Of a stretch of DNA of 64,000 nt, positions 16,326-58,674 are shown piece by piece (the stretch's first letter is position 1; every line of letters starts with the position of its first letter). Below the pieces are notes generated by a model. That model was not told the DNA's origin and did not search any database. It worked only from the letters and a program-made list of their open reading frames with translations. Where the stretch lies: the NCBI GenBank assembly GCA_038063615.1, contig JBBTUT010000002.1:48746-112745 (forward strand). The letters are read 5' to 3'. This DNA is from Patescibacteria group bacterium (GTDB lineage: Bacteria > Patescibacteriota > Minisyncoccia > Phycocordibacterales > UBA1550). Position numbers and translations under genes: made by a program.

Positions 16326-16369
16326 CACCATTATCTATTCCAAGTCATGACTTGGAATAGATAATGGTG
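16326..16369. repeat. Perfect 44 nt palindrome, family P1, 22 nt upstream of the PaaX-like gene 1 start
   Basis: caccattatctattccaagtca|tgacttggaatagataatggtg is its own reverse complement. Confidence 0.8.
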
Positions 16370-16391
16370 TATAATACAAAGTAAATACACC

Positions 16392-16946
16392 ATGGACAAA
16401 TACGAAAAAGGCGAACTTGCAAAAGAGATACTGCTTGGCATTGCGGCTTGTGGTTTCATCGTCGCAATGGCGGCGATGCCTGGGCTCGGTAAAGTAGTGC
16501 CACTTTTTAAAAATTTCAAAAGGGCAAAAGACCGCCACCGGATAAATCAAGCATTCCAAAAACTTCAAAAAAGAAAGCTGGTAAACATTTATACAAAAAA
16601 TAGTACCGAAGTCGTAGAGATTACCGAAGCGGGAAAGAAAAAAGTTCTTGAATACAATCTTGGCGAGATGAGATTAAAAGTCCCAAAGAAATGGGATGGC
16701 TGGTGGAGAATCGTGATGTTCGACATTCCACAGCCAAAGAAGAAAGCACGCGACGCGGTGAGCTGGAAGATAAAAGAGCTTGGTTTGTACCCGATCCAAA
16801 AGTCAGTTTTTGTATCACCATACTTATGTAAAAATGAAATTGATTTTATTGGAGAATTTTTTGGAGTACGCGACCACATCATCTACATCAAAGCAAAAGA
16901 GATCGAGGGTGTACGCAAACTCAAAGAATATTTTAACCTTGAATGA
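16392..16946 (+). CDS. PaaX-family-like transcriptional regulator, paralog 1 (wHTH N-terminal domain plus PaaX_C-like WDGxW domain; short form)
   Basis: C-terminal KKWDGWWRIVMFDIPQPKKKARDAVSWKIKELGLYPIQKSVFVSP parallels E. coli PaaX WDGKWLLLL...QL.W.GFG.L. The N-terminal half parallels PaaX_N. It is 45% or so identical to the ORF at 47433..48017. Confidence 0.5.
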   Translation: MDKYEKGELAKEILLGIAACGFIVAMAAMPGLGKVVPLFKNFKRAKDRHRINQAFQKLQKRKLVNIYTKNSTEVVEITEAGKKKVLEYNLGEMRLKVPKKWDGWWRIVMFDIPQPKKKARDAVSWKIKELGLYPIQKSVFVSPYLCKNEIDFIGEFFGVRDHIIYIKAKEIEGVRKLKEYFNLE

Positions 16947-17009
16947 CGCATCGGCACCAATTGACCCCATCGCAAACAAAAACCGCAACGAGTTAACTCA
17001 GTTGTCTCT

Positions 17010-17047
17010 TGTTATCTATTTCAAGCCATGACTTGAAATAGATAACA
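17010..17047. repeat. 38 nt palindrome, family P1, one central mismatch, 63 nt downstream of the PaaX-like gene 1 stop
   Basis: tgttatctatttcaagcca|tgacttgaaatagataaca. Confidence 0.75.
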
Positions 17048-17077
17048 GGGGGAACCGACAAAAAACTAATTCCATTT

Positions 17078-31134: not shown

Positions 31135-31135
31135 A

Positions 31136-34823: not shown

Positions 34824-35720
34824 TTACAAAAACATCCAATTTGCAGGGATATAATCTGTCGATGGAAGATTGGGGCAAGAATGGTGTGATTTTGGAGAAA
34901 AAACAATTTGCCCTTCTTTTTTGCCGAGCCAAGCACCCCACCAACTGAAAGTACTATTACCGAGAATATGATGCTTGCAGTGAGTCATGAGCCTCATGTC
35001 CTCATGGTTTTTTTTATCACCATTGTGCGAAACATAAATAGTTGGATATTTTAACTTTAAATTATTGCGCGCCCATTCTGGATCATCGGAAAAAACATAA
35101 AAAATGGGATCTTTTATTTTTAAGGCAATTTCCATTACTGCGCGGTGATAATATTCCAGCGGAAGAACCCCATTGATCATCTTTGTATTATCTCCATGAC
35201 GAACATGGAGACTGACTGAATTGCTTCCATCTATATCTTTTATCATTCGGCTGTTTATTTCATCAGGGACCTCTTTGAAAGAAAGTTCTTTTCTTATGAT
35301 ATTTTCAATATTTTTGAAATATTTCTCTGACTGCCAGTATCCTTCAACATAGACATCATTTTGTTGCTTTGTCGCCAAGATACATGGATCAAATTTAAAA
35401 TAATTTTTTTCCGGTTCTAAAATATATTTTCTCTTATAATAAGAATCTGGCTTACTGTAGAAACGAATGAGGTGTCTAAAAATTTTATTTTTAAGCAGAA
35501 AATTAAACTTAACCATGTCTTCTTTTGATGCCTGCTTTGCTGTAATATTGAAATTATCAAGACCGCAGACCCTAACCCCACGAATTGGATCTGGCTCAAT
35601 TTCCTTGTATCCAGAAATATCGACCTTGTGTTCTGTTTTATTAAGTACCGCTAAGTGGCACCCAAATGCGTATTGGAATAATTGATTTCCTAGCCCAGCA
35701 CTTATGTTGCTTATGATCAT
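34824..35720 (-). CDS. Alpha-1,2-fucosyltransferase (GT11), second copy
   Basis: AGLGNQLFQYA and HVRHGDN, the GT11 motifs. Confidence 0.8.
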   Translation of the reverse strand: MIISNISAGLGNQLFQYAFGCHLAVLNKTEHKVDISGYKEIEPDPIRGVRVCGLDNFNITAKQASKEDMVKFNFLLKNKIFRHLIRFYSKPDSYYKRKYILEPEKNYFKFDPCILATKQQNDVYVEGYWQSEKYFKNIENIIRKELSFKEVPDEINSRMIKDIDGSNSVSLHVRHGDNTKMINGVLPLEYYHRAVMEIALKIKDPIFYVFSDDPEWARNNLKLKYPTIYVSHNGDKKNHEDMRLMTHCKHHILGNSTFSWWGAWLGKKEGQIVFSPKSHHSCPNLPSTDYIPANWMFL

Positions 35721-35725
35721 GAATA

Positions 35726-36364
35726 CTAGTTAGATTCAATCACCATAATATCTCTTTCTATTTTAAATGAAAGATAACTATAATTAGCCACCAAATCTTG
35801 GATTTGTTTTACGGTTGGATAATCATGTGTCCCATCAAAACATCTAGCATCGTCGATTAAAATAATATCTTTTGCATTTTTTCTCGAAAAAATCGTGAGT
35901 AATTCTTTTATAACCGGCGTTTCTACCTCCCCTTTCGCGGTACCTTCGCCGGAATAATGAGCATCGAGCCAGAACAAAGCTGGCTCACTAATTGTGGGCA
36001 ATATTTCTATAAGTTTTTCTCCGCTGTCACCATGTATTAAGGTGACATTTTTATAATTAGCAAAATTATTTTTTGCATTTTCAAACAAAAAGTTGTCGAG
36101 CTCTATTGATACAATCTTAGAAAAGATATTTTTTACAGCGTTTATCATCAACCCCCCAGCTGTGCCAGTTTCTATAAAAGTTTTTAATTTGTTTTTTTTA
36201 CCAAACCTTCTAACGATTTTTTGTTTAATTAAATCTGGAGGAGGAACCGGCTGGCCTTCAAGAGACCATCTTAGTACAGCTTTTTCGTCCCGGATTCTTT
36301 TGATTATAGATTGTGGGATTATTTTTTTAAAAAATGCTTTTATTTTTTTATTCATATTTTTCAA
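35726..36364 (-). CDS. Class I SAM-dependent methyltransferase (TylF/MycF-like O-methyltransferase fold)
   Basis: FIETGTAGGLMINA motif I and ILIDDAR. Confidence 0.45.
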   Translation of the reverse strand: MKNMNKKIKAFFKKIIPQSIIKRIRDEKAVLRWSLEGQPVPPPDLIKQKIVRRFGKKNKLKTFIETGTAGGLMINAVKNIFSKIVSIELDNFLFENAKNNFANYKNVTLIHGDSGEKLIEILPTISEPALFWLDAHYSGEGTAKGEVETPVIKELLTIFSRKNAKDIILIDDARCFDGTHDYPTVKQIQDLVANYSYLSFKIERDIMVIESN

Positions 36365-36412
36365 GTTAATTTAAAGCCCTTATTCAAGAATAACGCCTAT
36401 TTTCCATGATAC

Positions 36413-37270
36413 TTAAAAAGTGCCATTTCTGCAAATTATTTTCTTAGAAAGGTCAAAAACCGTGCATTCTCGAATATTAATCCTTGGAATGCCTAAACTA
36501 TTTTTTGTCTTCTTTGCGAGTTTTTGCGTGTTTGAATACGCAAAATCAAAACCGGCCTGCTCAACTATTTCTTTTGAAAAATTATTAAAATCATAGATTC
36601 CACCAAAAGGATAGGCAAAACTTCTTACTTTTTCTCCAATTATATATTCAAGTGTAAGCTTGCTTTTTAAAATTTCTTTTTTCTGTTCTTCTGGGGTTGC
36701 GCTCGCAAGCCTTTGGTGTGTTTCTGTATGAGCGCCTATTTCTATCAATGGGTGTTCATAGAGTGATTTTATTTCTGTTTCACTTAAAAAAACTGCTCGG
36801 TCAGATTCTTTATATTTCATATCCCATTCAAACGATGCTTTTCTCCCGAGTGCGCCAGTTGTTATGAATATTGTTGCTGGTATATTATATTTTTCAAGTA
36901 AAGGAAGGGCATTGATTATGTTGTCGCGGTATCCATCATCAAAAGTAACCGCGGCCTCATTCCCTTTAAGTGTTCCCGCTATGAGTAGCCCGCTTAATTC
37001 TGAAAGAGGTATAATATTGTAATGTTTTTTGAGGAACTGTAGGTGATTTTCAAAACACACAGGTGTCACACATAGCATAAGTGGATCAGCAGATGTTGTC
37101 GAGATACGATGGTAAAGTAAAATTGGCGCGGTCTTGTAAAAAGTTTTATAAAATATATTAGCGATTTTTGCCTGAGTATGTAGTAGCAGAAAAAATAAAC
37201 GATGCATCGATACATAAAGACCGGTTGCTTCAAAAAAGGGTTTTATATAAATCTTTAAAATTCTTTTCAC
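36413..37270 (-). CDS. Polysaccharide deacetylase (NodB / CE4)
   Basis: AAVTFDDGYRDN...ATIFITTG...EIGAHTETHQRL, the CE4 motifs. Confidence 0.75.
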   Translation of the reverse strand: MKRILKIYIKPFFEATGLYVSMHRLFFLLLHTQAKIANIFYKTFYKTAPILLYHRISTTSADPLMLCVTPVCFENHLQFLKKHYNIIPLSELSGLLIAGTLKGNEAAVTFDDGYRDNIINALPLLEKYNIPATIFITTGALGRKASFEWDMKYKESDRAVFLSETEIKSLYEHPLIEIGAHTETHQRLASATPEEQKKEILKSKLTLEYIIGEKVRSFAYPFGGIYDFNNFSKEIVEQAGFDFAYSNTQKLAKKTKNSLGIPRINIRECTVFDLSKKIICRNGTF

Positions 37271-37992
37271 GGTTTTACTGCTTTAACTGTTATAATTAAC
37301 GGAAAATTTGGATCATTTTTCCCAAGTATCCTGCTCGAAGTATCCTCTTGCGCAAGACCCGCATAAAAATATATTCCCGAACGAGCGTTTCCATAGGTGG
37401 AGATGTTCAATTGTTTGGAGCTAAATTTTTTTTCAAATAGATACTTCGCTGACGCCTCAGTAAATCTCCAATAATCACCCTCAACACCCGAAACACAATC
37501 AATTCTACTTATGGAAGGCAATGTCACGAGAAGGACGCCACCGCTCTTAAGTATTCGGTGGCACTCAGAAATCCCCGCATCAACATTATCAATAAACTGA
37601 AATACCTGAGTAAGTATTATGCAGTCGTAAGAATTATCAGCTATTTTTTTAAGATGTCGCAAGTCATCGAAAATGTTTGCCATCTTGTTTTTTTCATCAA
37701 GATCCAAAACATCGCTTTTAACAACCTTCTCTTTCCCGTAGGTTGTGGTGTAGTTATTGTTTAACAGTTCGAGACATGTCCCATGGATGTCTTTCTGGTT
37801 TTGTTTAAGGAAATTCTCAATATAAAAACGGTCAATTGGTACTCCTCGGTCAAACCCATAGTAGTTGCTGAGTGGACCAGTTGTACTTCTGCAAAAATAG
37901 AATGCCGCAGGTTTTATTATTCGTCGCAGAAGTTTTCTTGTACTTTCAGAAAATGGAAGTTTTTTAATGATTTTTTTTAAATATGAGTACAT
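37267..37992 (-). CDS. Putative SAM-dependent methyltransferase
   Basis: HGTCLELLNNNY...DCIILTQVFQFIDN...LKSGGVLLVTLP, the Methyltransf_11/23-like pattern. Confidence 0.4.
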   Translation of the reverse strand: MYSYLKKIIKKLPFSESTRKLLRRIIKPAAFYFCRSTTGPLSNYYGFDRGVPIDRFYIENFLKQNQKDIHGTCLELLNNNYTTTYGKEKVVKSDVLDLDEKNKMANIFDDLRHLKKIADNSYDCIILTQVFQFIDNVDAGISECHRILKSGGVLLVTLPSISRIDCVSGVEGDYWRFTEASAKYLFEKKFSSKQLNISTYGNARSGIYFYAGLAQEDTSSRILGKNDPNFPLIITVKAVKP

Positions 37993-38015
37993 AATATTGA
38001 AAAGTTTATCACTTT

Positions 38016-38789
38016 TTACATTTTTTTTACAAACAGGTAATCTTTTTCATCTATTTCATCAACAAAGGAATACCCTCGAGGTTCCAGAAAATCGGTAATC
38101 TTTTCCAATCTGTCAGAATTTTGAGACTCCAAAAGAATATGGGTGGGTAAATTTCTAGAAAAATCGAGTCCATGCAATATTTGAAGTTCATATCCCTCAA
38201 CATCCGCAACAAAAAGATCAATAGGCCTATTGCATGAAGTTATTGCTTGCCCGTCTATTATCGACTGAATTGTTTGCGCTGGTACAGTGATTTCTCTGCA
38301 ATCTATATTTTGTGCTTGCTCACTATCTTTAATCCACTCTGAACTATTCTCAATACTACTTTTTACGAAAGACATAAAATTACAATCAATAAAAGACACC
38401 GTGCTCTCACGGTAGTCAAATGAGACACAAGCACTTTGTATTACCACCGAATTTTTACGATTTCTTTGACACAATTTACTTATAGGTAAGGGTTCAACAA
38501 TAATCCCTTCCCACCCCATAAACTTTTCGAGATAATAGGTAGGATCAAAACCATAACCATCATTACCCCCGCATTGTACAAAAAACCCATTTTTCTTGGT
38601 AATATGTTTCAGTAGTGCCTCATGACCAGAGTACGGCTTTGAATATTTTTCTGAACCAAAAAACTCATACAAATCCCTCTTGTATGGCGCAATTTTACTT
38701 CTTATAAATGGGAAGATTTTACCGATATTCTTTCGCGGGTTTTGTATCAGTTTCTTTATTTTTTGAAGATTTGTCTCTTGATATGCCAT
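38016..38789 (-). CDS. FkbM-family methyltransferase
   Basis: FFVQCGGNDGYGFDPTYY and DLFVADVEGYELQIL. Confidence 0.55.
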   Translation of the reverse strand: MAYQETNLQKIKKLIQNPRKNIGKIFPFIRSKIAPYKRDLYEFFGSEKYSKPYSGHEALLKHITKKNGFFVQCGGNDGYGFDPTYYLEKFMGWEGIIVEPLPISKLCQRNRKNSVVIQSACVSFDYRESTVSFIDCNFMSFVKSSIENSSEWIKDSEQAQNIDCREITVPAQTIQSIIDGQAITSCNRPIDLFVADVEGYELQILHGLDFSRNLPTHILLESQNSDRLEKITDFLEPRGYSFVDEIDEKDYLFVKKM

Positions 38790-38829
38790 AGGTTTTTATA
38801 TTTTTTATTACAATACTTAAAATTAATCT

Positions 38830-39795
38830 TTACGCAAGGATGCGTTTTAATAGTTTTGTAATTCTTAGTGCCACCAGTATCTTTACAAAATAATGCAATA
38901 CTCTGTCTCTTTTCCTTTTACCTATTTTACTATAAAATTCTTTTAATAACCTTACTGCTTCTGTATTTTCAACAATATTATCTTCAAAAATTATTTCTTC
39001 TTCATCGCTCAATTCAACCTCAAATTGGTGCTTCCCAAGAATTTTATTAATTGCAGAAAAGTGAGTGCCATTAAATAACCCGTTATTCTTTATTAAAGGT
39101 TTCGGTGAATTTACCGCAAGTCCATTGTTGCGTGTAATCGCAACATACCAACATATATCCCAAGGGATTGGATTTAATTTCAAGCTAGATAAACAATTAA
39201 ATGCGCCATCTAATTCCATTTTTCCCCTCTGTTCAATCGATAAAGCGTCTAATCCCTCTGCTTCATTTTGAAACCACTTGAATTTATCCCAGCGATTTTT
39301 CCAAGTACCCCACCCACCTCCAGTATTTTCTGAGTATCTCCAGAAAAATACTTTGTTGTACCCAGCTGGCATTTTAATAAATGTGAAGGTTGCAATATGC
39401 ATGACCTTCTCTTTGTCTTCATAAAAATCGAGAGCATTATTCATAAATGTGAGAAAGTTTTTTGCAGACACACCATCGTCCTCTAAAACGATAATTTTGC
39501 CATATCTGTTTACTATTTCAGTCACACCTTCAATTATATTTCTTTCGATATAGAAATTTTCTTTCCGTTCAATTATATTTACAGACTTAAAACCGGTTAT
39601 TGTTTTTATATACTGACGCACAGCATCAACAGCTTTCTTATTTTTTGCAGTTTTCGGCGCATCAGAAAAAATAAAGATATCTGTTTTTTGGGCTAGATAA
39701 TTATTTTTTAGCGCTTCTATTGTCTGCCTTGTATTATCCAAGCGATTGTACACAAAAATGGCGACAGGAGCTTGCGTTTTATTTAGATTATCCAT
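38830..39795 (-). CDS. GT-A-fold putative glycosyltransferase, paralog B (same family as 31924..32874)
   Basis: VAIFVYNRLDNTRQ...IFSDAP...GGGWGTWKNRW. Confidence 0.4.
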   Translation of the reverse strand: MDNLNKTQAPVAIFVYNRLDNTRQTIEALKNNYLAQKTDIFIFSDAPKTAKNKKAVDAVRQYIKTITGFKSVNIIERKENFYIERNIIEGVTEIVNRYGKIIVLEDDGVSAKNFLTFMNNALDFYEDKEKVMHIATFTFIKMPAGYNKVFFWRYSENTGGGWGTWKNRWDKFKWFQNEAEGLDALSIEQRGKMELDGAFNCLSSLKLNPIPWDICWYVAITRNNGLAVNSPKPLIKNNGLFNGTHFSAINKILGKHQFEVELSDEEEIIFEDNIVENTEAVRLLKEFYSKIGKRKRDRVLHYFVKILVALRITKLLKRILA

Positions 39796-40582
39796 GTTTT
39801 TGTAACGCTCGAGGATGATTACCTGGCGTGCTAATAAGTATTGATTTTGCGCGAGTAATGCGTTTTTCTGGTGGCGGTGGGGTTATATAATCTTTGCCAT
39901 ACATCAAAGATAAATATTCATGTACTTTTTTAGGTGCAGGATATAATTTACTCTCAAACTCAATATAATTAAGCGGGTAAATATAAGATTTTGGTATTGC
40001 ATAATAATACCAATTATCCTCAACAGTTTGGGCTACCTTGTCACTTTTAAATGGAGAAAGTAACAGCCAAATAAATTTGCACAATAGGTAGATAGAATAA
40101 TTAAAAAAGACATTTTCTCTGGAAATAACAGCTTTAGCGCGTGATCGACCAGTAAAGTACAGTAATCCCTTTCTCAAAAAGTCAGGCATCTTAGGATAAA
40201 TTACTGATGGGAAAATATCGATGTAGATTCCCTGATGATACGACTCTTCACCTGTTTCATTTTCGTGTAAAAATGTAGAATAACAATCACAGAGTTTTGC
40301 GAAGTGCTGCTTATATGCTTTGTCTGTTTTGGCGGTCTGCAGGAAAATATCTTGCGGGAGTTCTTTCTCTGCTATTTTTAAGAATTTTTTATAATCCTCT
40401 ACTGGCATTGACACATCAATGTCATCATCCCAAGGAATAAATCCTTTTTGTCGTACCGCACCAAGCAGGGTCCCAAAATCTATCCAAAAGACCAACCCAT
40501 GTTTGTCACAAATTTCTTTCAACGCATCCAGAAGATATATCTCTTTTTTCCTATACTCAATGTAGTCTTTTTCGCTTATCAT
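39788..40582 (-). CDS. LicD-family phosphotransferase (cholinephosphotransferase / fukutin-like)
   Basis: YLLDALKEICDKHGLVFWIDFGTLLGAVRQKGFIPWDDDIDVSM, the LicD nucleotidyltransferase-fold motif. Confidence 0.75.
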   Translation of the reverse strand: MISEKDYIEYRKKEIYLLDALKEICDKHGLVFWIDFGTLLGAVRQKGFIPWDDDIDVSMPVEDYKKFLKIAEKELPQDIFLQTAKTDKAYKQHFAKLCDCYSTFLHENETGEESYHQGIYIDIFPSVIYPKMPDFLRKGLLYFTGRSRAKAVISRENVFFNYSIYLLCKFIWLLLSPFKSDKVAQTVEDNWYYYAIPKSYIYPLNYIEFESKLYPAPKKVHEYLSLMYGKDYITPPPPEKRITRAKSILISTPGNHPRALQKHG

Positions 40583-40592
40583 ATATTTTATG

Positions 40593-41219
40593 TTATTTTT
40601 TTACCGCAATCACCCTTATGAATGTATAGTCAGTATCCCCAAATGGGGCAAAACCAGACTTTTCCTCTTTAAATACGACTTCAAATCCTGCCTTTATTAG
40701 TTTTTTGTGCAATCTGTCTATATCTATGAATCTACGAAAATGGCCTTCATAAATGTAGGCGTCTGGCTCACCATGAACAGGATCTCCTAATTTGTATATT
40801 TCGTTCTTCTTCCCCCTTGTTTCGATTAGTAGTTTACCATTGTTTTCTATGTGTTCATATGTCCACTTAATAACATCATCTTCCTCTTTTTCTGTAATAG
40901 AATGTAGCGTAAAACGAGAATAAACATTGTCAAAAAAGCCTATTTCGCCTAATTTTGTAAAATCAGCACACATAAATTTTAAATTGGGGATGTTATTTTT
41001 TTCTGCTAACACAGATATTTCATTTTCACATTGATCTACTGCTAAAACGTCAACGCCATGATCACTAAAAAGAAAACTATCTCTGCCATTTCCGCAACCA
41101 AGTTCTAATAAAGAATTTTTTTCTTTTATATAATTTTCTAATACGAACTGCGCGAATAAAGACGCTTGTAAAGGCGCATTCTTTATTTTATAATAATTTT
41201 CCCAATATTTTTTGTCCAT
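40593..41219 (-). CDS. Class I SAM-dependent methyltransferase
   Basis: LLELGCGNGRDSFLF, VLAVDQCENEI and MCADF. Confidence 0.7.
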   Translation of the reverse strand: MDKKYWENYYKIKNAPLQASLFAQFVLENYIKEKNSLLELGCGNGRDSFLFSDHGVDVLAVDQCENEISVLAEKNNIPNLKFMCADFTKLGEIGFFDNVYSRFTLHSITEKEEDDVIKWTYEHIENNGKLLIETRGKKNEIYKLGDPVHGEPDAYIYEGHFRRFIDIDRLHKKLIKAGFEVVFKEEKSGFAPFGDTDYTFIRVIAVKK

Positions 41220-43426: not shown

Positions 43427-43502
43427 AGCGCCTTCACCATATAAGTCCCCTCAAGCACATATCCCCACTTGCGGTAGTATTCGCGGACGCCGATGCCGGA
43501 GA
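43427..43502. repeat. Displaced duplicate of the elp3 3' coding end, about 76 bp and about 88% identical to 44767..44842
   Basis: Minus-strand translation keeps the Elp3 C-terminal frame ISGIGVREYYRKWGYVLEGTYMVKAL, versus ...WGYRLEGTYMVKAL* in the intact gene. Confidence 0.7.
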
Positions 43503-43546
43503 TAGCTTTGAATACCTGATTTTAGTCTAATTCCCCCAAATAGGTA

Positions 43547-43595
43547 TATTACGGGGAGTTTGACTCCCCGTAATTGACATATTACGGGGAGTTTG
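43547..43595. promoter_or_regulatory. Direct repeat tattacggggagtttga (twice) with an internal inverted repeat (attacggggag / ctccccgtaat), upstream of the AAA+ ATPase gene
   Basis: Read from the sequence. Contains TTGACA at 43575-43580. Confidence 0.3.
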
Positions 43596-43611
43596 ATACC
43601 CTTAAAGGTAT

Positions 43612-44762: not shown

Positions 44763-46448
44763 CTACAGTGCCTTCACCATATATGTCCCCTCGAGCCGGT
44801 ATCCCCATTTGCGGTAATATTCGCGGACGCCGATGCCGGAGATGATGGCGAGTTTGGCGTAGCCGGCTTCGCGCGCGATGCGTTCTGCTTCGACGAGGAG
44901 GCGGCGGCCGAAGCCGATGTGCTGGCTTTGCGTGCCTGCGGTGCCGATTGGGGTGAGCTGCCCGTAGGTGTGGAGCTCGCGCACGAGTGCGGCGTCGCGG
45001 AGGACCTCGAGTGGTCCGCCGACGAATTCTTCGCCGTGATTGTCGGGGAGGCGCAGGCGAAGAAAAGCGGCGAGTTTGCCCTCGTTCGGCTCTTCAAAAC
45101 TAAGAAAGATCTCGCGCCCTGTTTTAGTGCGATACTCGGTCGTCGTGAGCGGAAACTTTTCCAAGTCAATGACGGCGCCACGCACTTCGCGACAGCGGAT
45201 GCATACGCAGTGCCAGTTGTGCTTTTTCATATCATTAAAAAGCCATTGGCGGAGATTTGAAATTTTGCTTCCCGCTTGAATGTAGGTCGCGGGGATGTCG
45301 CGGATGACCCGAATGATGCGCACATATTTCGGCACCTGTTTTTTTGCGCCGACGAGCACGCGAAAAAGCTCCTCGTCCGTGTACGGCTTGAACCCGCCTT
45401 CCTTCCATATTTGAAAAAGCTCACTCCCCTCGAGCACCATACACGGATACACCTTGAGCATATCGGGTTGAAAATCCTCGCCGGAAAAAAGCTCGCCAAA
45501 CATTTCGATGTCGCGCTCCACGGTCGAGCCGGGAAGATTGGGCATCATATGGTATACGACTTTGAGTCCCGCATTGCGGAGGCGCTCAGTTGCCTGTGCC
45601 ACCTGCGCAATCTTCATATCGCGTTTTGTTTGTTTGAGGACAGCATCATCAAGATGCTGAACACCAATCTCGACTTTGGTCACACCGAGCAGACGCAGTC
45701 GTTCAATTTCGTAAGTCGTAATGTAATCGGGACGCGTCTCTATTGAAAGTCCGATGATGCGCGTTCCCGCCGTTTCGTTTTCATTTTGTAATTCCGCAAG
45801 AGACTTTACACCCTTTGGTGTCTGCATGTCTTTCTGTTTTCCAAAATTGTTGCATGCGCGATAGCATTCAGCGAGAAATTCTTCCTGATATTTCGGATGA
45901 TAAAAACTCCAAGTCCCGCCGATGACGATCATCTCTATCTTGTCGGTCGCGTGTCCGTTCATCACGAGCGCAGAGAGACGGCTCGTCACTTGGTCGTACG
46001 GATCGAAGTCGTTGGCAAGGGCGCGCGCGGCGGCCGGCTCTTTTGAAAGATAGCTCTTCGGCATTTTCTCTTCGGTCGGACAATAGGTACACCGCCCCGG
46101 ACAGGGATACGGTTTGGTAAGGAGCGACACGACCGCAACGCCGGAATTGCTTCGTGTCTTTATTTTTTTCAAAACAAGCTCCGCGTCAAGATTTGGCATC
46201 TCATCCCCTGTTGCGATGACCTCTTTGTACAAGGCAAGCATTTCCGCATTGGTAGGCATTTTTGGACCCAATCCATCCTCAGAAACCGCCGTATTCGGCT
46301 CATTTTGCCCCATAGAAGCGGGTTTGTTCTGTCGAGAGGGGATGTTTTGGCGAAGCTCCAAAATACGCGCATAGAGCACCGGATTGGTGGCGATGCGCCG
46401 TTTGAGCTTGTCCAAGTCCTTTTCGGTTTTTATGTCGGTGAAAAGCAT
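44763..46448 (-). CDS. elp3: Elp3-type radical-SAM / GNAT tRNA uridine(34) acetyltransferase. Start set at MLFTDIKTEK.
   Basis: CPGRCTYCP radical SAM cluster motif, a C-terminal GNAT domain (GFGRRLLVEAERIAREAGYAKLAIISGIGVREYYRKWGY), and typical Elp3 length. Confidence 0.85.
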   Translation of the reverse strand: MLFTDIKTEKDLDKLKRRIATNPVLYARILELRQNIPSRQNKPASMGQNEPNTAVSEDGLGPKMPTNAEMLALYKEVIATGDEMPNLDAELVLKKIKTRSNSGVAVVSLLTKPYPCPGRCTYCPTEEKMPKSYLSKEPAAARALANDFDPYDQVTSRLSALVMNGHATDKIEMIVIGGTWSFYHPKYQEEFLAECYRACNNFGKQKDMQTPKGVKSLAELQNENETAGTRIIGLSIETRPDYITTYEIERLRLLGVTKVEIGVQHLDDAVLKQTKRDMKIAQVAQATERLRNAGLKVVYHMMPNLPGSTVERDIEMFGELFSGEDFQPDMLKVYPCMVLEGSELFQIWKEGGFKPYTDEELFRVLVGAKKQVPKYVRIIRVIRDIPATYIQAGSKISNLRQWLFNDMKKHNWHCVCIRCREVRGAVIDLEKFPLTTTEYRTKTGREIFLSFEEPNEGKLAAFLRLRLPDNHGEEFVGGPLEVLRDAALVRELHTYGQLTPIGTAGTQSQHIGFGRRLLVEAERIAREAGYAKLAIISGIGVREYYRKWGYRLEGTYMVKAL

Positions 46449-47297: not shown

Positions 47298-47343
47298 CCC
47301 CGTAACCCCTATCTCCACAACTATCTCCCCAATCTTATCTTTT

Positions 47344-47389
47344 TCTCTTCAGCCTGTTTGATACTATAGTATCAAACAGGCTGAAGAGA
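47344..47389. repeat. Perfect 46 nt palindrome, family P2, 44 nt downstream of the PaaX-like gene 2 stop
   Basis: tctcttcagcctgtttgatacta|tagtatcaaacaggctgaagaga. Confidence 0.8.
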
Positions 47390-47432
47390 AATTCAACGAG
47401 ACCTCCTCGAAACGAGTGCTCCTGCGGATAAT

Positions 47433-48017
47433 TTAAAGCTTGAATGTCTTCTTAATCTGCTCCACGCCTTCAACATCATGGGCGACAACAATACGAATAT
47501 ATTTTCGAACATCAAAACATTCTCCAACAAAATCAATCTCCTTGGTGCAAGGAAACGGCGTAATAAACACTGACTTTTGATACTGCGCACAACCAAGCTT
47601 CTTGAGGGCGAGATTGACTGCTCGACGCGCCATCTTTTTTTCTTCAGGAACATCGAACATAATTAAACGCCATGTTCCATCCCATTTTTTTTGAGGAGAT
47701 ATTTTCATCAAATCAAGCTGATTTCGCTTTGCGCGATTATACCCTAAGTCGGTAAGCGAATAATAATCATCTCCATTTTTCGTACTCTTTTTTACAAACC
47801 CTCTTTTCTCAAGCCGTGAAAATGAGCGGTGAACCTCCCATCTATCTTGAGAGTTTCGCGGAAGAAAATATTTAAAAAGTTGCACGGCGTTGGGAGCAAC
47901 GATTGCTGTTGTTAAAAGCCCAACACCAAGCAAAATATTCAGAATCATCTCCTGTCGTTCTTGTTTTTTCAAAATCATCTCCTGCTTCTTTTGTTTTTCT
48001 TTTTCTTGTTTTTTCAT
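47433..48017 (-). CDS. PaaX-family-like transcriptional regulator, paralog 2, with a K/E/Q-rich N-terminal extension
   Basis: SFSRLEKRGFVKKSTKNGDDYYSLTDLG (PaaX_N-like wHTH) and KKWDGTWRLIMFDVPEEKKMARRAVNLALKKLGCAQYQKSVFITP (PaaX_C-like). Homologous to the ORF at 16392..16946. Confidence 0.5.
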   Translation of the reverse strand: MKKQEKEKQKKQEMILKKQERQEMILNILLGVGLLTTAIVAPNAVQLFKYFLPRNSQDRWEVHRSFSRLEKRGFVKKSTKNGDDYYSLTDLGYNRAKRNQLDLMKISPQKKWDGTWRLIMFDVPEEKKMARRAVNLALKKLGCAQYQKSVFITPFPCTKEIDFVGECFDVRKYIRIVVAHDVEGVEQIKKTFKL

Positions 48018-48026
48018 ATTAAATCA

Positions 48027-48068
48027 TTTACAGCCTGTTTGATACTATAGTATCAAACAGGCTGTAAA
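48027..48068. repeat. Perfect 42 nt palindrome, family P2, 10 nt upstream of the PaaX-like gene 2 start
   Basis: tttacagcctgtttgatacta|tagtatcaaacaggctgtaaa. The 34 nt core is identical to the 47344..47389 copy. Confidence 0.8.
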
Positions 48069-48178
48069 TGTAAACAGGGATGAACAGGGAATTAAGGAAC
48101 TTACAAAAATCTACTGATTCGTCTATTTCGCTGACAAACTCACAAAAGTGACCCGTACAATTAAGGTCGAGCAACTTC

Positions 48179-51756: not shown

Positions 51757-53016
51757 TTACTCCCCTCTCAGCGCCTCCTTCGTATACACATTCCTCGGGT
51801 CCCAGAGGAACCAGGAGTTGAGGCCGGAGTCGTAGGTGGCTTGGATCTGCGCGCGGACTTCCGTGGCGCCGTAGTTGCCACCGTAGTCAAAATCTTGGAG
51901 CCACGGACGGAGCTTGTTTCGGCTGTATGGTTCTTTTGTATAAAGTGCGGGCGTCGAGGTGCCGATGCGCTGTGCTCCAAGGTGAAGCGCGGGGGTCGTC
52001 GTTGCTTCGGCTCTCTCTGCGGCGCGACTCATCGAAAACTGCACAACATCGTACACATGCTGATTTGGATTTTTCCAGCCATTGAAATTTGGCGGATAGT
52101 GCGACGGGTACACCATCGGCGAAACGAAATCAAAGTATGGGAGCGCGCGCTCGAGCACTTGCCCGATATTCAGGTCGTCGGTATTGGTCGCGGTCATTCC
52201 AAAAAGATCGGCGGAAAGCTTTGCTCCCGTATCTTTGAGCGCGTCGTGCAAGTATGCGAAAAAATGCTCGAGCGCCTCCTCCTTGCTCACCCCTTTTTCT
52301 CCCCACGAAAAATAAATGTTCTTCATATCGCCGTCCGAAGGAAAACGAATGTAATCAAAATTGAGTTCGTCGAAACCCAGCGCATACGACTCTTTGCCGA
52401 GTGCTGCGATGTAGTCCCAAAACGGCTTCGCGCTCACATCCACGAAACTCAAACCTTTTTTGTCTTTCCATACCCCGCCATCGCTCGCGCGCTTGACCGC
52501 GAACTCAGGGTGAATCTTTGTATAATAGGGATCCTGAAACACCGTGATGCGCGCGATGGCATAGATTCCCTTTTCGTGAAGATGCGCGATGAATTCACGG
52601 AGGTCTTTCGTACGGCACCCCAGACCAACATTGTCTTTGAGGAGCGGGTCTGTCGCTGGAAACACGATTGTACCGCTGAAATCCTTCACATCGATGATGA
52701 TGCTGTTCACCTCTGTCATGTCGGCGATATGCACCAGCTTTTCACGAAAGCTCGGCATCGTCGCAACGCATGCGGTCATATAGATTGCCTTCACCGCATC
52801 GGGAGTTTCGATATGGGTCACCTTGACCTCGAGCTTGTCCAATAACACATTCAAAGCGACATCCTCAGAAGTCGTCGCTGTGGTGACGGGGATATCGCCG
52901 GCTTCATCCGAACGATACGCCACCGAGAAAATCGTGGGGATAAAAAAATAAAAGACGGAGAATGCTCCGGCTGCAAAGACACCCCCTATCGCGATGTGCT
53001 TGTGCGCGCGCTTCAT
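51757..53016 (-). CDS. Putative glycoside-hydrolase-like TIM-barrel protein (DUF4015/YngK-like) with an N-terminal TM anchor
   Basis: IIIDVKDFSGTIVFP ... GIYAIARITVFQDP ... FDELNFDYIRFP pattern. The family assignment is tentative. Confidence 0.35.
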   Translation of the reverse strand: MKRAHKHIAIGGVFAAGAFSVFYFFIPTIFSVAYRSDEAGDIPVTTATTSEDVALNVLLDKLEVKVTHIETPDAVKAIYMTACVATMPSFREKLVHIADMTEVNSIIIDVKDFSGTIVFPATDPLLKDNVGLGCRTKDLREFIAHLHEKGIYAIARITVFQDPYYTKIHPEFAVKRASDGGVWKDKKGLSFVDVSAKPFWDYIAALGKESYALGFDELNFDYIRFPSDGDMKNIYFSWGEKGVSKEEALEHFFAYLHDALKDTGAKLSADLFGMTATNTDDLNIGQVLERALPYFDFVSPMVYPSHYPPNFNGWKNPNQHVYDVVQFSMSRAAERAEATTTPALHLGAQRIGTSTPALYTKEPYSRNKLRPWLQDFDYGGNYGATEVRAQIQATYDSGLNSWFLWDPRNVYTKEALRGE

Positions 53017-53249
53017 TATTGTGTATGAGGAGGGACTATTTCACTCTCGGCAGACGGGAGGGCCTGCTCGGCATCGTCGATGAGTTTTTTGCAGTTACTG
53101 CAATAAGTGACCGATGAGAGATACGCGAGAACCACGATACCAAGCCCGCTTGCGACGAGAAGAGTCGTTTGCACCCACGATGGAAGCCCGAGGATAGGGA
53201 GCGCCACCACCAAAGCGCCGAGGAATATCATTGCAGTGTGTTTTGTCAT
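53016..53249 (-). CDS. Small 77 aa two-TM membrane protein with a CxxC near the C-terminus
   Basis: MTKHTAMIFLGALVVALPILGLPSWVQTTLLVASGLGIVVLAYLSSVTYCSNCKK. A family P1 palindrome sits at its start. Confidence 0.3.
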   Translation of the reverse strand: MTKHTAMIFLGALVVALPILGLPSWVQTTLLVASGLGIVVLAYLSSVTYCSNCKKLIDDAEQALPSAESEIVPPHTQ

Positions 53250-53303
53250 AGGGATAGAATACAGGGAATAATGAAAATATTCAATAGCGATGATCGGACC
53301 ACC

Positions 53304-53347
53304 GCCCATTATCTATTTCAAGTCATGACTTGAAATAGATAATGGGC
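53304..53347. repeat. Perfect 44 nt palindrome, family P1, third copy, far from the PaaX-like genes
   Basis: gcccattatctatttcaagtca|tgacttgaaatagataatgggc. Confidence 0.8.
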
Positions 53348-53361: not shown

Positions 53362-54072
53362 CTAGCGCGCAGGCGCCACTATTACCACAAACTCTCCGCG
53401 GACGCGGTCGGGTTTTTGGGCAAAATGAGCGCGCGCCTCGGCGACCGTGCCTCGCACAAATTCCTCATATATTTTGGTCAGCTCACGCGCGACAATGACG
53501 CCACGGTCTGCGCCACAAAATTTCTCGAGCGACTCAAGCGCTTTTTCGATGCGATGCGGTGATTCGTAAAATGCCATTACGCGCTTTGACTCGGCAATCT
53601 CTTTGAACAAAGTTTCCCTGCCTTTCTTGTGCGGAAGAAACCCGAGAAAGGTGAACTCCGCAACCGAGATGCCCGCCGCCGAGAGCGCGGTCACGAGCGC
53701 GGATGGTCCGGGAATTGGGACAATCAAAACCGCGTCGCCAAATTTTTCACGCACCTGCGCGACGAGGAGCATCCCCGGGTCCGAGATGCACGGTGTTCCA
53801 GCATCCGATACGAGCGCGAGATTTTTCCCCTCTTCGAGAAGCGCGAGAATTTTGTCCACCTTCGCGAGCTTCGACTGCGCATGGTAGCTCATCTTGGGCG
53901 TCGCGATGTCATATTTGGAAAGCAACCGCCCCGTCACGCGCGTATCCTCGCACAAAATGAGATCAACCTCTTTGAGCACGCGCAAAGCCCGCAGGGTGAC
54001 ATCCTCGAGGTTTCCTATCGGCGTGCCGATGATGAAAAGTTTGCCTTGAATTTTATTGGAAGGTGTTGCCAT
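53362..54072 (-). CDS. rsmI: 16S rRNA (cytidine1402-2'-O)-methyltransferase
   Basis: LFIIGTPIGNLEDVTLRALRVLKEVDLILCEDTR, a tetrapyrrole-methylase fold of the RsmI type. Confidence 0.85.
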   Translation of the reverse strand: MATPSNKIQGKLFIIGTPIGNLEDVTLRALRVLKEVDLILCEDTRVTGRLLSKYDIATPKMSYHAQSKLAKVDKILALLEEGKNLALVSDAGTPCISDPGMLLVAQVREKFGDAVLIVPIPGPSALVTALSAAGISVAEFTFLGFLPHKKGRETLFKEIAESKRVMAFYESPHRIEKALESLEKFCGADRGVIVARELTKIYEEFVRGTVAEARAHFAQKPDRVRGEFVVIVAPAR

Positions 54073-56410: not shown

Positions 56411-57026
56411 GTTTGAAAAATTGCATGTATGTAATATCTAAAAATTATTTGTTGAGTATTCTTTCTTTTGTTCCGTTCTTCGCCTTGCTTTGCCGTCCGT
56501 TTTAAAAAAACAGGCGATTAAGCAAGGTCTTGCGTACCGGTAACCCTTCCGGTAAGGGAGCCCCTTTTTGAGATGGGAGGGCCTTCATCTTAATTCCTTG
56601 CGGAAAAAACCGACCAATTCAGCGTATCGCAACCACGAGGGCGTACGATACAACATTATATTTTGAATTGATTCACGACCAGCTTCCGCTAGCCGTGCCT
56701 TGTTACGACTTAGTCCTTGTTACCAAGCTTACCTTAGGTCCACGCGAGGTGGAACTTCGGGTACTCTCGGCTCCCCTGACTTGACGGGCGGTGAGTACAA
56801 GACTTGAGAACGTATTCACCGCAGTATAGCTGACCTGCGATTACTAGCGATTCCAACTTCATGAGGTCGAGTTTCAGCCCTCAATCCGAACTGGGGCCAC
56901 CTTTATTAGGATTAGCTCAGGGTTACCCCGTCGCGACCCGTTGTAGTGGCCATTGTATCAAGTGTGCAGCCCAGGGTATCAAAGGGACATGCTGACCTGG
57001 CGTCATCCTCTCCTTCCTCCCCCGCC

Positions 57027-57153
57027 TTTATTCGCGAAGCGAACAAAGGCAAGTCAAAAGTTAAAAGTCACAAGTCGAAAGTAGATGCATTTTGCATTCA
57101 CTTTTTACTTTACACTTTCTACTTTCCACTTGCCTTTGCGCTTCGTGCGCAAA
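57027..57153 (-). other. 16S insertion 1: an AT-rich extended hairpin of about 116 extra nt replacing the small loop before the GGAGGAAGG region (E. coli position about 1165)
   Basis: Sense strand reads TTTGCGCACGAAGCGCAAAGGCAAGTGGAAAGTAGAAAGTGTAAAGT...ACTTTCGACTTGTGACTTTTAACTTTTGACTTGCCTTTGTTCGCTTCGCGAATAAA, full of (G/C)AAAGT repeats. No ORF. Confidence 0.6.
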
Positions 57154-57388
57154 GGCGGGGGCAGTCTCGTCTGACACATATAACAGACAACGAGGGTTGC
57201 GTTCGTTGACCCACTTAAGGGGACAGTTCAAACCACGAACTGACGACGGCCATGCATCACCTGTCCATAAGTCCTTGCGGAGTTACCGAGTTTCCTCGGT
57301 CTTTCTTATGGATTTCTAACCCTGGTGAGGTTCTTCGTTTACCATCGAATTAAGCCACCTGATCCACCGCTTGTGCAAGTCCCCGTCT

Positions 57389-57420
<32 letters not shown>

Positions 57421-57918
57421 TCCCAGGCGGATCTCTTAACGCGTTAGCTTCGCCTCTCAGAGGGTCGATACTCCGAAAAGCTAGAGATCATCGTTTAGGG
57501 CGTAGACTACTGGGGTATCTAATCCCATTCGCTACCTACGCTTTCGTGTTTCAGTGTCAGAAATGTGCCAGTTTGCTGCCTTCGCATTTGGTGTTCCCCA
57601 TGATATCAACGGATTTCACCCCTACACCATGAGTTCCGCAAACCTCTCACACCCTCTAGTCGTGCCGTTTCAGCCGCAATTCTCCGGTTAAGCCGGAGGC
57701 TTTGACGAATGACTAACACGACCACCTACACACCCTTTACGCCCAATAATTCCGGATAACGCTTGGGGTACTCGTATTACCGCTGCTGCTGGCACGAGTT
57801 TAGCAACCCCTTATTCATGAGGTACTATCAAAAATTTCTCCCTCATAAAAGATCTTTACATCCCGAAAGACTTCATCGATCACGCGGCGTCGCTCCATCA
57901 GACTTTCGTCCATTGTGG

Positions 57919-57949
<31 letters not shown>

Positions 57950-58189
57950 ATGGTCCGTGTCTCAGTACCATCGGTGGGGGTCAGGCTCTCACCTCCCCTA
58001 AGCGTCATAGCCTTGGTAAGCCATTACCTTACCAACTAGCTGATACTCAATAAGCCAAGCCCCAAGCGATAAATCTTTACTCCGAAGAGACTATCAAGTA
58101 TTAGCCCGCCTTTCGGCGGGTTATTCCTGACTTGGGGGTTTGTACCTATTTATTACTACCTCGTTCGCAACTCCGAGCATCACGCTACG

Positions 58190-58292
58190 CGCGATACACG
58201 AGTCAAAAGTCGAAAGTCCTTAAAGTCCAAAGTAAATACGAATTGTATTCACTTTTGACTTTCGACTTTATAAACTTTTTGACTTGTGCATC
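58190..58292 (-). other. 16S insertion 2: an AT-rich hairpin expansion of helix 6 (V1 region), about 95 extra nt, with the same AAAGT/GACTTT repeat flavour
   Basis: Stem base CCGAGCATCAC ... GTGATGCTCGG. The interior reads CAAGTCAAAAAGTTTATAAAGTCGAAAGTCAAAAGTGAATACAATTCGTATTTACTTTGGACTTTAAGGACTTTCGACTTTTGACTCG. Confidence 0.6.
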
Positions 58293-58674
58293 ACACCCAA
58301 TGTGATGCTCGGCGTTCTACTTGCATGCCTTATCCACGCCGCCAGCGTTCATCCTGAGCTAGGATCAAACTCTCTTAAAAAGAGCATTTGAATTAACTCT
58401 CAAGAACGGAACAAAAGAAAAAATACTCTTTTGTATTCTTGTTATTTTACTCACAAGATCTGCCCAACTGCTAAAATCGAACAGATCCTTTTTTGGACTT
58501 GCAATCCAAACTTTAGATGTTTACATATATGCAATTGTCAAAGGTCGTTTTGCTTTCGGGCAAATACCCTGAAAGCAAAAGCGCTCATTCCTAAGCGCTT
58601 GAGCAGTATATACTTGTGTCGAAAAGAAGTCAAGCGCGAATTTTAGGCATATTTTATAGGCAAAATAAAGGTTT

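What the first reader, a model, noticed from the sequence alone, without database searches (positions are those of the whole stretch)
53304..53347. Orphan third copy of the family-P1 palindrome in front of a small membrane-protein gene, 36 kb away from its PaaX-like gene
A perfect 44 nt copy (gcccATTATCTATTTCAAGTCATGACTTGAAATAGATAATgggc) overlaps the start region of the 77 aa TM protein gene 53016..53249, downstream of rsmI. This is what a regulon member of the P1-type PaaX-like regulator would look like. Alternatively it is a solo end left by a cassette excision.
Basis: inference. Interest (0 to 1): 0.55.

Follow-up and report, generated by a model that had tools for sequence, protein, structure and literature searches.

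The report
Solo copy of a regulator's palindrome
This perfect 44-base palindrome is a recently inserted extra copy of the site that flanks a small PaaX-like DNA-binding gene, and it belongs to an apparently undescribed pattern in ultra-small groundwater bacteria in which such genes carry their own fast-evolving palindromes and scatter solo copies between unrelated genes.

Summary
Positions 53304-53347 are a perfect 44-nt palindrome, and two more copies flank the 184-aa PaaX_M/Cas2-like gene at 16392-16946. None is expected by chance.

The regulon reading is weak.
- The palindrome lies 54 nt before the membrane-protein ATG and outside that gene's conserved core promoter.
- It is absent from the same intergenic site in three syntenic relatives, one with a neighbouring protein 94% identical.
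- P1-type solos elsewhere sit beside unrelated housekeeping genes, some between convergent gene ends.

The wider picture is more interesting.
- Across 80 Paceibacteria loci, long zero-loop palindromes are 45-fold enriched at the ends of PaaX-like genes.
- Each gene has its own palindrome sequence, and that sequence tracks protein divergence.
- Upstream and downstream copies differ by two-sided changes (83) far more often than by one-sided ones (31).
- The upstream P1 copy overlaps the gene's own promoter, as in E. coli PaaX autoregulation.

Best reading: a lineage-specific solo copy of the P1 protein's cognate binding palindrome, spread by an unknown copy-and-insert process. The logic resembles REP/RAYT, but the protein is different. 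How the copies move, and any effect on the neighbouring gene, are inferred and not shown.

The parts
53304..53347 (.). Solo ('orphan') P1 palindrome, 22-nt perfect arms, no loop
   Evidence: Absent from the syntenic site in L046, L059 and L101.
16326..16369 (.). Upstream P1 palindrome (perfect 44 nt). Probable autoregulatory operator of the P1 gene.
   Evidence: The promoter-like site ATGACT-17-TATAAT spans its centre and right arm.
16347..16375 (+). Promoter-like site of the P1 gene. The -35 is at the palindrome centre and the -10 TATAAT follows the palindrome directly.
   Evidence: 10 of 12 matches. This is a consensus match only.
16392..16946 (+). P1 gene: 184-aa short PaaX-like protein (winged helix plus Cas2-like PaaX_M domain, no PaaX_C domain)
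   Evidence: Pfam PF20803 at 1.8e-17. AlphaFold model has pLDDT above 90 for residues 100-184. Top Foldseek hit is E. coli PaaX 8a39, followed by Cas2 structures.
17007..17050 (.). Downstream P1 palindrome (imperfect), lying between the convergent ends of the P1 gene and ORF 17078-17380(-)
   Evidence: It differs from the upstream copy at 4 positions changed on both arms.
53016..53249 (-). 77-aa predicted membrane protein gene downstream of the solo (neighbour; not shown to be regulated by it)
   Evidence: Kyte-Doolittle 19-residue maximum 2.2. Conserved in L046, L059 and L101 without the palindrome.
53256..53284 (-). Candidate core promoter of the 77-aa gene (TTGAAT-17-TATTCT). It begins 19 nt beyond the palindrome.
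   Evidence: Read from the sequence. The block is conserved in L101 while everything upstream of it is unrelated. It scores 8 of 12, below the scan threshold, so it is inferred.
53362..54072 (-). rsmI (16S rRNA C1402 2'-O-methyltransferase). Its stop codon is 15 nt before the solo.
   Evidence: TIGR00096 at 1.2e-71.

Best explanation
The 44-nt palindrome is a solo, lineage-specific copy of the cognate DNA site of the P1 protein. P1 is a short PaaX-family protein with a winged helix and a Cas2-like dimerisation domain.

By analogy with E. coli PaaX, a P1 dimer reads the two arms of the palindrome. PaaX binds TGATTC-N27-GAATCA and represses its own promoter. The upstream gene-flanking copy covers the -35 and spacer of the P1 promoter and so serves autoregulation.

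The solo at rsmI/TM is one of at least four extra copies in this organism. These copies were pasted into intergenic DNA by a copy-and-insert process that has not been identified. The overall logic is that of REP elements and their RAYT genes: a single-copy gene flanked by its own palindromes, plus dispersed extragenic copies that differ between close strains.

Any influence on the neighbouring membrane-protein gene, such as blocking read-through from rsmI, would be a secondary consequence and not a conserved regulon link.

Shown: family membership, the association of gene and palindromes, its generality, the two-sided changes, the absence of the solo in relatives, and the promoter overlap of the upstream copy.
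Inferred: protein binding, how the copies are moved, and their effect on transcription.
For: (1) Three P1 copies in the window against 0 expected by chance.

(2) Generality. In 80 loci from genome contigs, 23 PaaX-like genes have long zero-loop palindromes on both sides and 26 more on one side. The density is 2.46 per kb at gene ends against 0.055 per kb elsewhere, a 45-fold difference.

(3) The palindrome sequence is gene-specific and tracks protein divergence: Spearman 0.46, Mantel p = 0.001. For most solos for which a cassette from the same genome had been sampled, the best match among 80 gene-flanking palindromes is a cassette of the same genome, for example L007, L036 to L008, L041 to L007, L043, L052 and the window.

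(4) Upstream versus downstream copies of the same gene: 373 arm positions are the same, 83 are changed on both arms, and 31 are unpaired in one copy.

(5) The upstream copy overlaps ATGACT-17-TATAAT, 17 nt before the ATG. PaaX binds a 39-bp site made of widely spaced inverted hexamers and autorepresses its promoter Px (PMC9493321). The fold search ranks PaaX first.

(6) The solo is missing at the syntenic site in L046, L059 and L101. A second P1 solo, in L082, is missing in L103, whose Dus protein is 95% identical.

(7) Census. Of the 11 metagenome contigs with the P1 core, none has a PaaX-like gene beside the palindrome; the only such gene (L087) lies about 6.9 kb from it. L082, L085 and L087 come from the same sample as the window's contigs, at 45-46x against 42-46x. 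In two other samples, contigs holding the same two sites (L083, L088-L090) track the window's contigs in depth. With the three copies in the window, that gives at least 6 copies in this organism.

(8) All 27 solos examined are intergenic: 14 tandem, 7 convergent, 4 divergent and 2 at contig edges.
Against: No binding data exist, so the link between protein and palindrome is correlative. No transposase, recombinase or other conserved partner gene accompanies the cassettes. The protein has no demonstrated catalytic activity.

Copy number is low, about 6 per family. Some ortholog groups keep their synteny (L004, L005, L006, L010), so movement, if real, is infrequent.

No clean insertion boundary or target-site duplication could be defined, because the intergenic DNA of relatives is unalignable.

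All four solos assigned to this organism lie 35-125 nt upstream of a co-directional gene start, so a regulatory role at these sites is not excluded.

Assigning L082, L085 and L087 to the window's genome rests on co-abundance. Tetranucleotide composition did not discriminate.

The two-sided changes could come from template-switch mutation in quasi-palindromes and not from selection.
Confidence: 0.55

Rival explanations
1. Regulon operator. The P1 protein binds the solo and controls the 77-aa membrane-protein gene, either by blocking read-through from rsmI or by acting from about -55 to -98 relative to the start site. This would make the gene a true regulon member.
For: The solo is cognate to the autoregulatory site. 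It lies upstream of a co-directional gene start, as do the other three solos assigned to this organism (35-125 nt). PaaX-family proteins are repressors with operators of about 40 bp.
Against: No promoter-like site overlaps the solo on the coding strand. The candidate core promoter lies 19 nt beyond it and is conserved in L101, which has no palindrome. The site is absent in three syntenic relatives. The neighbours of P1-type solos are functionally unrelated (dus, argS, dgkA, tsaD-like). Two of seven distinct metagenome sites and the cassette's own downstream copy lie between convergent gene ends.
Confidence: 0.2
2. Excision scar. A P1 cassette (palindrome, gene, palindrome) once sat between rsmI and the TM gene and was deleted by recombination between its two flanking palindromes, leaving one copy, as with a solo LTR.
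For: The flanking copies are both direct and inverted repeats, so recombination between them would leave exactly one palindrome. Cassette positions differ between related genomes: the P2-type cassette is next to rsmI in L046 and L059 but 6 kb away in the window.
Against: No relative has a cassette at this site. A simple crossover between the upstream and downstream copies would give an asymmetric product. The solo is perfectly symmetric for 22 nt, including its private GCCC/GGGC flanks. At the two variable arm positions it is a symmetric mosaic, with upstream-type A/T at the outer position and downstream-type T/A at the inner one. Solos (at least 4) outnumber cassettes (1) for this family.
Confidence: 0.15
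3. Protein-independent hairpin. The palindrome is simply a transcription terminator or RNA-stabilising stem-loop at the 3' end of rsmI, and its similarity to the P1 sites is incidental or due to shared ancestry.
For: It begins 15 nt after the rsmI stop and would form a 20-22 bp stem. Many solos lie just after gene ends.
Against: There is no T-run after the stem on the coding (minus) strand; the only terminator-like call is on the antisense strand. The upstream cassette copy and several solos lie in divergent intergenic regions with no upstream transcript to terminate. The 45-fold association with PaaX-like genes and the gene-specific sequences are left unexplained.
Confidence: 0.07

Closest known systems
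E. coli PaaX repressor and its operators (TGATTC-N27-GAATCA; autorepression of Px)
   Same: The protein shares the PaaX central Cas2-like domain (Pfam PF20803), and PaaX is the best structural match. The target is about 40 bp with dyad symmetry. One copy overlaps the gene's own promoter.
   Different: The protein is 184 aa and lacks the PaaX_C ligand-binding domain. No paa catabolic genes are nearby. The whole 44 nt is palindromic, not only the outer hexamers. A second copy follows the gene, and solos are scattered in the genome. The N-terminus is unusually hydrophobic.
REP elements and RAYT genes (REP-associated tyrosine transposases; from my own knowledge of the literature)
   Same: A single-copy, largely vertically inherited gene is flanked by its own palindromes. 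Each paralog has its own palindrome family. Further copies are dispersed and strictly extragenic. Presence or absence differs between close relatives. Stem pairing is maintained by two-sided changes.
   Different: The protein is not an HUH/Y1 transposase (no PF01797 match). Copy number is a handful, not tens to hundreds. The palindromes are longer, perfect and have no loop. No cleavage or mobilisation activity is known for PaaX_M or Cas2-like domains in this setting.
Solo LTRs and MITE-type non-autonomous copies
   Same: A short terminal repeat of a gene-bearing unit is found alone at other genomic sites and is polymorphic between strains.
   Different: No target-site duplication or clean boundary could be defined. 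No transposase is present.
CRISPR-associated Cas2
   Same: The C-terminal domain has the Cas2 ferredoxin-like fold, with an acidic residue (D111) at the end of strand 1.
   Different: Matches fall below the curated cut-offs (22.4 against 23.8 bits, and 22.6 against 24.5). The window has no Cas1 and no CRISPR array. The domain is fused to a winged helix.

Membership tests
PaaX-family transcriptional repressor with operator | Central Cas2-like PaaX_M domain | tested here: met
   PF20803 at E 1.8e-17, 63.6 bits against a cut-off of 24.
PaaX-family transcriptional repressor with operator | N-terminal winged-helix DNA-binding domain of PaaX type | tested here: inconclusive
   The model shows helix 45-60 plus a beta-hairpin at 64-77, and the top Foldseek hit is PaaX 8a39 (E 2e-3, TM 0.38). 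There is no Pfam PaaX N-terminal hit, and residues 1-37 have pLDDT below 50.
PaaX-family transcriptional repressor with operator | C-terminal PaaX_C domain (phenylacetyl-CoA response) and full-length match to the equivalog model | tested here: not met
   The protein ends at residue 184 and has no PaaX_C hit. Paralog P2 scores 44.8 bits on TIGR02277 against a cut-off of 264.55, and P1 has no hit at all.
PaaX-family transcriptional repressor with operator | Dyad-symmetric operator of about 40 bp overlapping the regulated promoter | tested here: inconclusive
   Met for the upstream copy. Not met for the solo at 53304-53347, which overlaps no promoter-like site on the coding strand. Binding itself was not tested.
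REP/RAYT system | Gene encodes an HUH/Y1 (IS200/IS605-like) transposase | tested here: not met
   The Pfam scan gives only PaaX_M and a weak Cas2 match.
REP/RAYT system | Gene flanked by its cognate palindromes, with further extragenic copies in the same genome | tested here: met
   Copy number is low, at least 6.
REP/RAYT system | High copy number (tens to hundreds) of short imperfect palindromes | tested here: not met
   Seven class-type palindromes in 64 kb, three of them P1. The palindromes are 40-74 nt and mostly perfect. No closed genome was available for a full count.
Intrinsic (Rho-independent) terminator | G+C-rich stem-loop followed by a T-run on the transcribed strand | tested here: not met
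   The terminator-like call is only on the + strand, antisense to rsmI and the TM gene. The minus-strand tail is GGTGGTCCGA.
MITE / transposon end | Target-site duplication and a clean empty site in relatives | tested here: inconclusive
   Relatives lack the element, but the surrounding intergenic DNA is unalignable.
CRISPR-Cas adaptation module | Cas2 together with Cas1 and a repeat-spacer array | tested here: not met
   Cas2 models score below their cut-offs. No array appears among the direct repeats. PADLOC gives only weak Cas2 matches.

The most novel reading that the evidence does not exclude
The short PaaX_M/Cas2-like proteins of Paceibacteria are the active or domesticated agents of a new kind of palindrome-propagating element. 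Each paralog recognises its own perfect palindrome, possibly as an extruded hairpin or cruciform, with the conserved Cas2-type acidic residue D111 acting in cleavage. Each paralog then copies that palindrome into new intergenic sites. This would be a REP/RAYT-like system built on a completely different protein fold, in organisms with minimal genomes.
Probability: 0.2. Interest if true: 0.85.

Novelty: new variant of a known kind. Interest (0 to 1): 0.6.

Why it matters
Candidate Phyla Radiation bacteria have tiny genomes and few recognisable regulators or mobile elements. Here a family of small PaaX-like proteins, with several paralogs per genome, each carries a private palindrome of 40-70 bp. 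These palindromes stay symmetric, evolve several times faster than their surroundings, and seed solo copies that differ between near-identical strains.

If the proteins only bind these sites, this is a compact and experimentally tractable model of co-evolution between a regulator and its operator, and of how binding sites spread. If the proteins also move the sites, it is a new class of mobile DNA.

In practice, these palindromes also explain why metagenome assemblies of these organisms break into pieces of about 1 kb around these genes.

Tried and rejected
- Rfam scan of the whole window: only 16S rRNA and one tRNA. Nothing at the palindromes.
- PHROGs and PADLOC: no informative hits beyond weak Cas2 matches.
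- Viral contigs: no relatives of the protein, so a phage origin is not supported.
- Literature searches found nothing describing this association: PaaX + Cas2 + palindrome; PaaX + crystal structure + Cas2; CPR + REP; Patescibacteria + palindromic repeat; PaaX + CPR terms.
- Exact look-up of the 77-aa protein failed because public gene calls use the 97-aa start.
- Exact look-up of the L082 Dus protein failed, so I could not place L082 in the same NCBI MAG as the window.
- Tetranucleotide composition does not separate Yonathbacteria genomes, so the same-genome assignment of L082, L085 and L087 rests on coverage.
- The identical 681-nt spacing in the P1 and P2 cassettes looked meaningful. Spacing in 23 cassettes ranges from 616 to 753 nt, so it mostly reflects gene length.
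- G-U-type pairs in the downstream copy were checked for a strand bias that would indicate an RNA hairpin. The flank favours the sense strand and the centre favours the antisense strand, so there is no consistent signal.
- An inversion of the cassette between strains was considered because the downstream-copy centres are reverse complements of each other. It was rejected because both flanks of L100 are collinear with the window.

Full report
**1.

Positions 53304-53347 read GCCCATTATCTATTTCAAGTCA|TGACTTGAAATAGATAATGGGC, a perfect palindrome with 22-nt arms and no loop. Its 36-nt core recurs at 16330-16365 (2 mismatches) and 17011-17046 (3 mismatches). No match appeared in 100 shuffles of the window.

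Those two copies bracket ORF 16392-16946(+). This 184-aa protein matches Pfam PaaX_M, 'PaaX central Cas2-like domain', at 1.8e-17.

The solo lies 15 nt after the stop codon of rsmI (53362-54072, minus strand; TIGR00096 at 1.2e-71). It ends 54 nt before ATG 53249 of a 77-aa hydrophobic protein gene. So it is in front of that gene's start and does not overlap it. Only a longer 97-aa ORF, whose ATG is created by the palindrome itself, overlaps the site. The conserved ATG and upstream block in relative L101 support the short form.

**2. The organism**

Homologues and exact-match look-ups place the window in a Candidatus Yonathbacteria population (Paceibacteria, CPR). It comes from Hainich groundwater well H41. 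Contigs run at 42-46x in sample ERZ1292625, and the population is also in NCBI MAG GCA_964357725.1.

**3. The protein**

The AlphaFold model is confident for residues 100-184, a Cas2-like ferredoxin fold with pLDDT above 90. It is moderate for a winged-helix region (helix 45-60, hairpin 64-77) and poor for residues 1-37.

The best Foldseek hit in the PDB is E. coli PaaX (8a39). Next come the PaaX-like Rv0674 and several Cas2 structures. The protein lacks the PaaX_C domain and fails the PaaX and Cas2 equivalog cut-offs. It is therefore a short PaaX-like protein and not PaaX itself.

A review states that E. coli PaaX binds TGATTC(N27)GAATCA and represses its own promoter by steric hindrance (PMC9493321). 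A dyad site of about 40 bp is therefore what this family would be expected to read.

**4. The cassette**

The upstream P1 palindrome overlaps a promoter-like site. ATGACT sits at the palindrome centre, then a 17-nt spacer, then TATAAT immediately after the palindrome, then the ATG 17 nt further on. This is the geometry of an autoregulatory operator.

The downstream copy lies between the convergent ends of the P1 gene and ORF 17078-17380(-). It cannot be a promoter operator.

A second paralog, 39% identical, sits at 47433-48017(-). It is flanked in the same way by a different perfect palindrome, at 47342-47391 and 48025-48070.

**5. The pattern is general**

A protein-profile scan of species-representative genomes returned 80 loci, with several paralogs per genome.
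- My palindrome scan found long palindromes with no or a short loop on both sides of 23 genes, and on one side of 26 more.
- Density is 2.46 per kb within 150 nt of gene ends against 0.055 per kb elsewhere, a 45-fold difference.
- Centre-to-centre spacing runs from 616 to 753 nt. The shared 681 nt of P1 and P2 therefore mostly reflects gene length.
- Sequences differ from gene to gene, and arm similarity tracks protein identity (Spearman 0.46, Mantel p = 0.001).
- One subgroup of homologues, 45-51% identical and 196-200 aa long, has few or no such palindromes.
- No partner gene is conserved next to the cassettes, although some ortholog groups keep their synteny.
- No relatives occur on viral contigs.

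**6. Symmetry is actively maintained**

I compared the upstream and downstream copies of the same gene at each arm position.

| Outcome | Positions |
|---|---|
| Identical in both copies | 373 |
| Changed on both arms, so each copy stays a palindrome | 83 |
| Unpaired in one copy | 31 |

- The outer flanks are private to each copy yet symmetric. In the P1 family they are cacc/ggtg, gccc/gggc and ccccact/agtgggg. They are often G+C-rich.
- Between two strains that are 96% identical overall, the downstream palindrome differs at 8 of about 50 positions.
- A protein reading only conserved half-sites would not produce symmetric divergence at unread positions. Either pairing matters, as a DNA hairpin or cruciform, or template-switch mutation in quasi-palindromes keeps re-symmetrising the arms. 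The second idea rests on established knowledge and was not tested here.
- An RNA-only explanation fails for upstream copies and solos in divergent intergenic regions.

**7. Census of P1 copies**

A scan of metagenome contigs with the 30-nt P1 core (four positions free) found 11 contigs, which represent 7 distinct sites. None has a PaaX-like gene beside the palindrome; the only such gene, in L087, lies about 6.9 kb from it.

L082, L085 and L087 come from the same sample as the window's own contigs, at 45-46x against 42-46x. In two further samples, contigs holding the same sites as L085 and L087 track the window's contigs in depth: 13 against 14, and 14-18 against 21. They most likely belong to the same organism. 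That gives at least 6 P1 copies, 2 flanking the gene and 4 solos. Composition could not confirm the assignment.

Neighbouring genes of P1-type solos:

| Locus | Neighbours | Arrangement |
|---|---|---|
| window | rsmI \| 77-aa TM gene | tandem |
| L082 | POTRA-domain (ftsQ-like) gene \| dus | tandem |
| L085 | dut-like \| argS-like | tandem |
| L084, L087 | upstream of a dgkA-like gene | at contig edge |
| L081 | tsaD-like \| 90-aa ORF | convergent |
| L091 | 329-aa ORF \| 660-aa ORF | convergent |
| L086 | two divergent ORFs | divergent |

The dut, argS, dgkA and tsaD labels come from my reading of the protein sequences and were not scanned against profile libraries.

Across all families, the 27 solos examined are all intergenic: 14 tandem, 7 convergent, 4 divergent and 2 at contig edges. 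One 'divergent' call, window 5955, is really tandem, because the true neighbour is hicA on the minus strand.

For most solos whose genome also supplied a sampled cassette, the best match among 80 gene-flanking palindromes is a cassette of the same genome.

**8. The solos are recent**

L046 and L059 are syntenic with window 50.4-63.9 kb, at about 74-78% nucleotide identity.
- At the rsmI/TM junction, L046 has about 58 nt with no palindrome.
- L059 has about 290 nt of unrelated sequence.
- In L101 the DUF4015 neighbour is 94% identical. The about 40 nt before the ATG, which contain TTGAAT-17-TATTCT, are conserved. Everything between that block and rsmI is an unrelated AT-rich 78 nt with no palindrome.
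- The two adjacent solos between the ftsQ-like gene and dus in L082 are likewise missing from L103, whose Dus is 95% identical.

A perfect 44-58 nt palindrome cannot arise stepwise as an operator. These copies were pasted in. No clean boundaries or target duplications could be defined, because the intergenic DNA has turned over.

**9. Interpretation**

The most economical reading is that the solo is a lineage-specific extra copy of the P1 protein's cognate palindrome. It belongs to a small dispersed family whose founding pair flanks the P1 gene.

The regulon reading is weakened in four ways: the site is absent from relatives that keep the gene and its promoter, it lies outside the core promoter, the contexts of sister copies are unrelated, and some sites are convergent. 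It is not excluded, because all four solos in this organism do lie upstream of a co-directional gene.

The excision-scar reading explains a solo in principle. No cassette is seen at this site in any relative, and the solo's symmetric mosaic of upstream-type and downstream-type bases is not a simple crossover product.

A plain terminator is ruled out by the missing T-run on the coding strand.

**10. Comparison with known systems**

The system works like a PaaX-type autoregulated repressor, in its domain, its site size and its promoter overlap. It is organised like a REP/RAYT system: a gene flanked by cognate palindromes, family-specific dispersed extragenic copies, and strain-level polymorphism.

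It fails defining tests of both. It has no PaaX_C domain and no paa gene context. It has no HUH transposase, its copy number is low, and its palindromes are perfect and without a loop.

Five literature searches found no description of it. I therefore rate it a new variant of a known kind, with a minority possibility of a new palindrome-mobilising protein class.

Noticed in passing
window 47342-48070: Second cassette (family P2). Paralog gene 47433-48017(-) is flanked by perfect 50-nt and 46-nt palindromes (core CAGCCTGTTTGATACTA|TAGTATCAAACAGGCTG), with the same 681-nt spacing as P1. In syntenic relatives L046 and L059 a P2-type cassette sits at a different place, between the NTP-transferase gene and rsmI.
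   Followed up: partly
window 5955-6004 and 21114-21155: Two more solo perfect palindromes of the same class (centre CCTATAGG) whose cognate genes are not in the window. One lies between hicA (6035-6265, minus strand) and a methyltransferase gene. The other lies in a 1-kb intergenic stretch between secA and an AbiEii-like gene.
   Followed up: partly
window 16392-16505 (P1 residues 1-37) and 47900-48017 (P2 N-terminus): Both PaaX-like proteins have a strongly hydrophobic N-terminal stretch (Kyte-Doolittle 19-residue maxima 2.14 and 2.06) that AlphaFold models with pLDDT below 50. It could be a membrane anchor that tethers the DNA-binding protein, or unusually greasy helices 1-2 of the winged helix.
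   Followed up: partly
L082 8000-8116: Two solos of related families lie 17 nt apart in one intergenic region. They share the ATCTATTTCAAG core but have centres GTCATGAC and GCTATAGC. Both are absent in close relative L103. L086 (14.5 kb) carries three solos of three families and no PaaX-like gene.
   Followed up: partly
L100 1-918 versus window 16146-17063: Between strains 96% identical overall, the downstream palindrome differs at 8 of about 50 nt. A 5-nt indel separates the upstream palindrome from the TATAAT box, which shifts which -35-like hexamer is usable.
   Followed up: yes
many homolog contigs; L087, L088, L098, L099: Many assemblies carry these genes on contigs of only 0.7-1.1 kb, and several contigs end at or inside a palindrome. 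The flanking palindromes evidently break short-read assemblies.
   Followed up: no
window 28400-41200: Low-GC island (GC 0.34 against 0.45-0.49 elsewhere) made of a long run of minus-strand genes. It may be a horizontally acquired cluster.
   Followed up: no
window 56661-58380: The 16S rRNA gene spans 1720 nt for a 1533-nt model, which implies an insertion, as is often seen in CPR bacteria.
   Followed up: no
window 6035-6604: A hicA/hicB-like toxin-antitoxin pair on the minus strand, judged from the sequences only and not scanned against profile libraries.
   Followed up: no
window 43427-43503 and 44767-44843; 43524-43596: A 77-nt direct repeat (90% identical) lies at two gene ends 1.3 kb apart. 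Beside it is a pair of 33-nt tandem units that contain TATTACGGGG.
   Followed up: no
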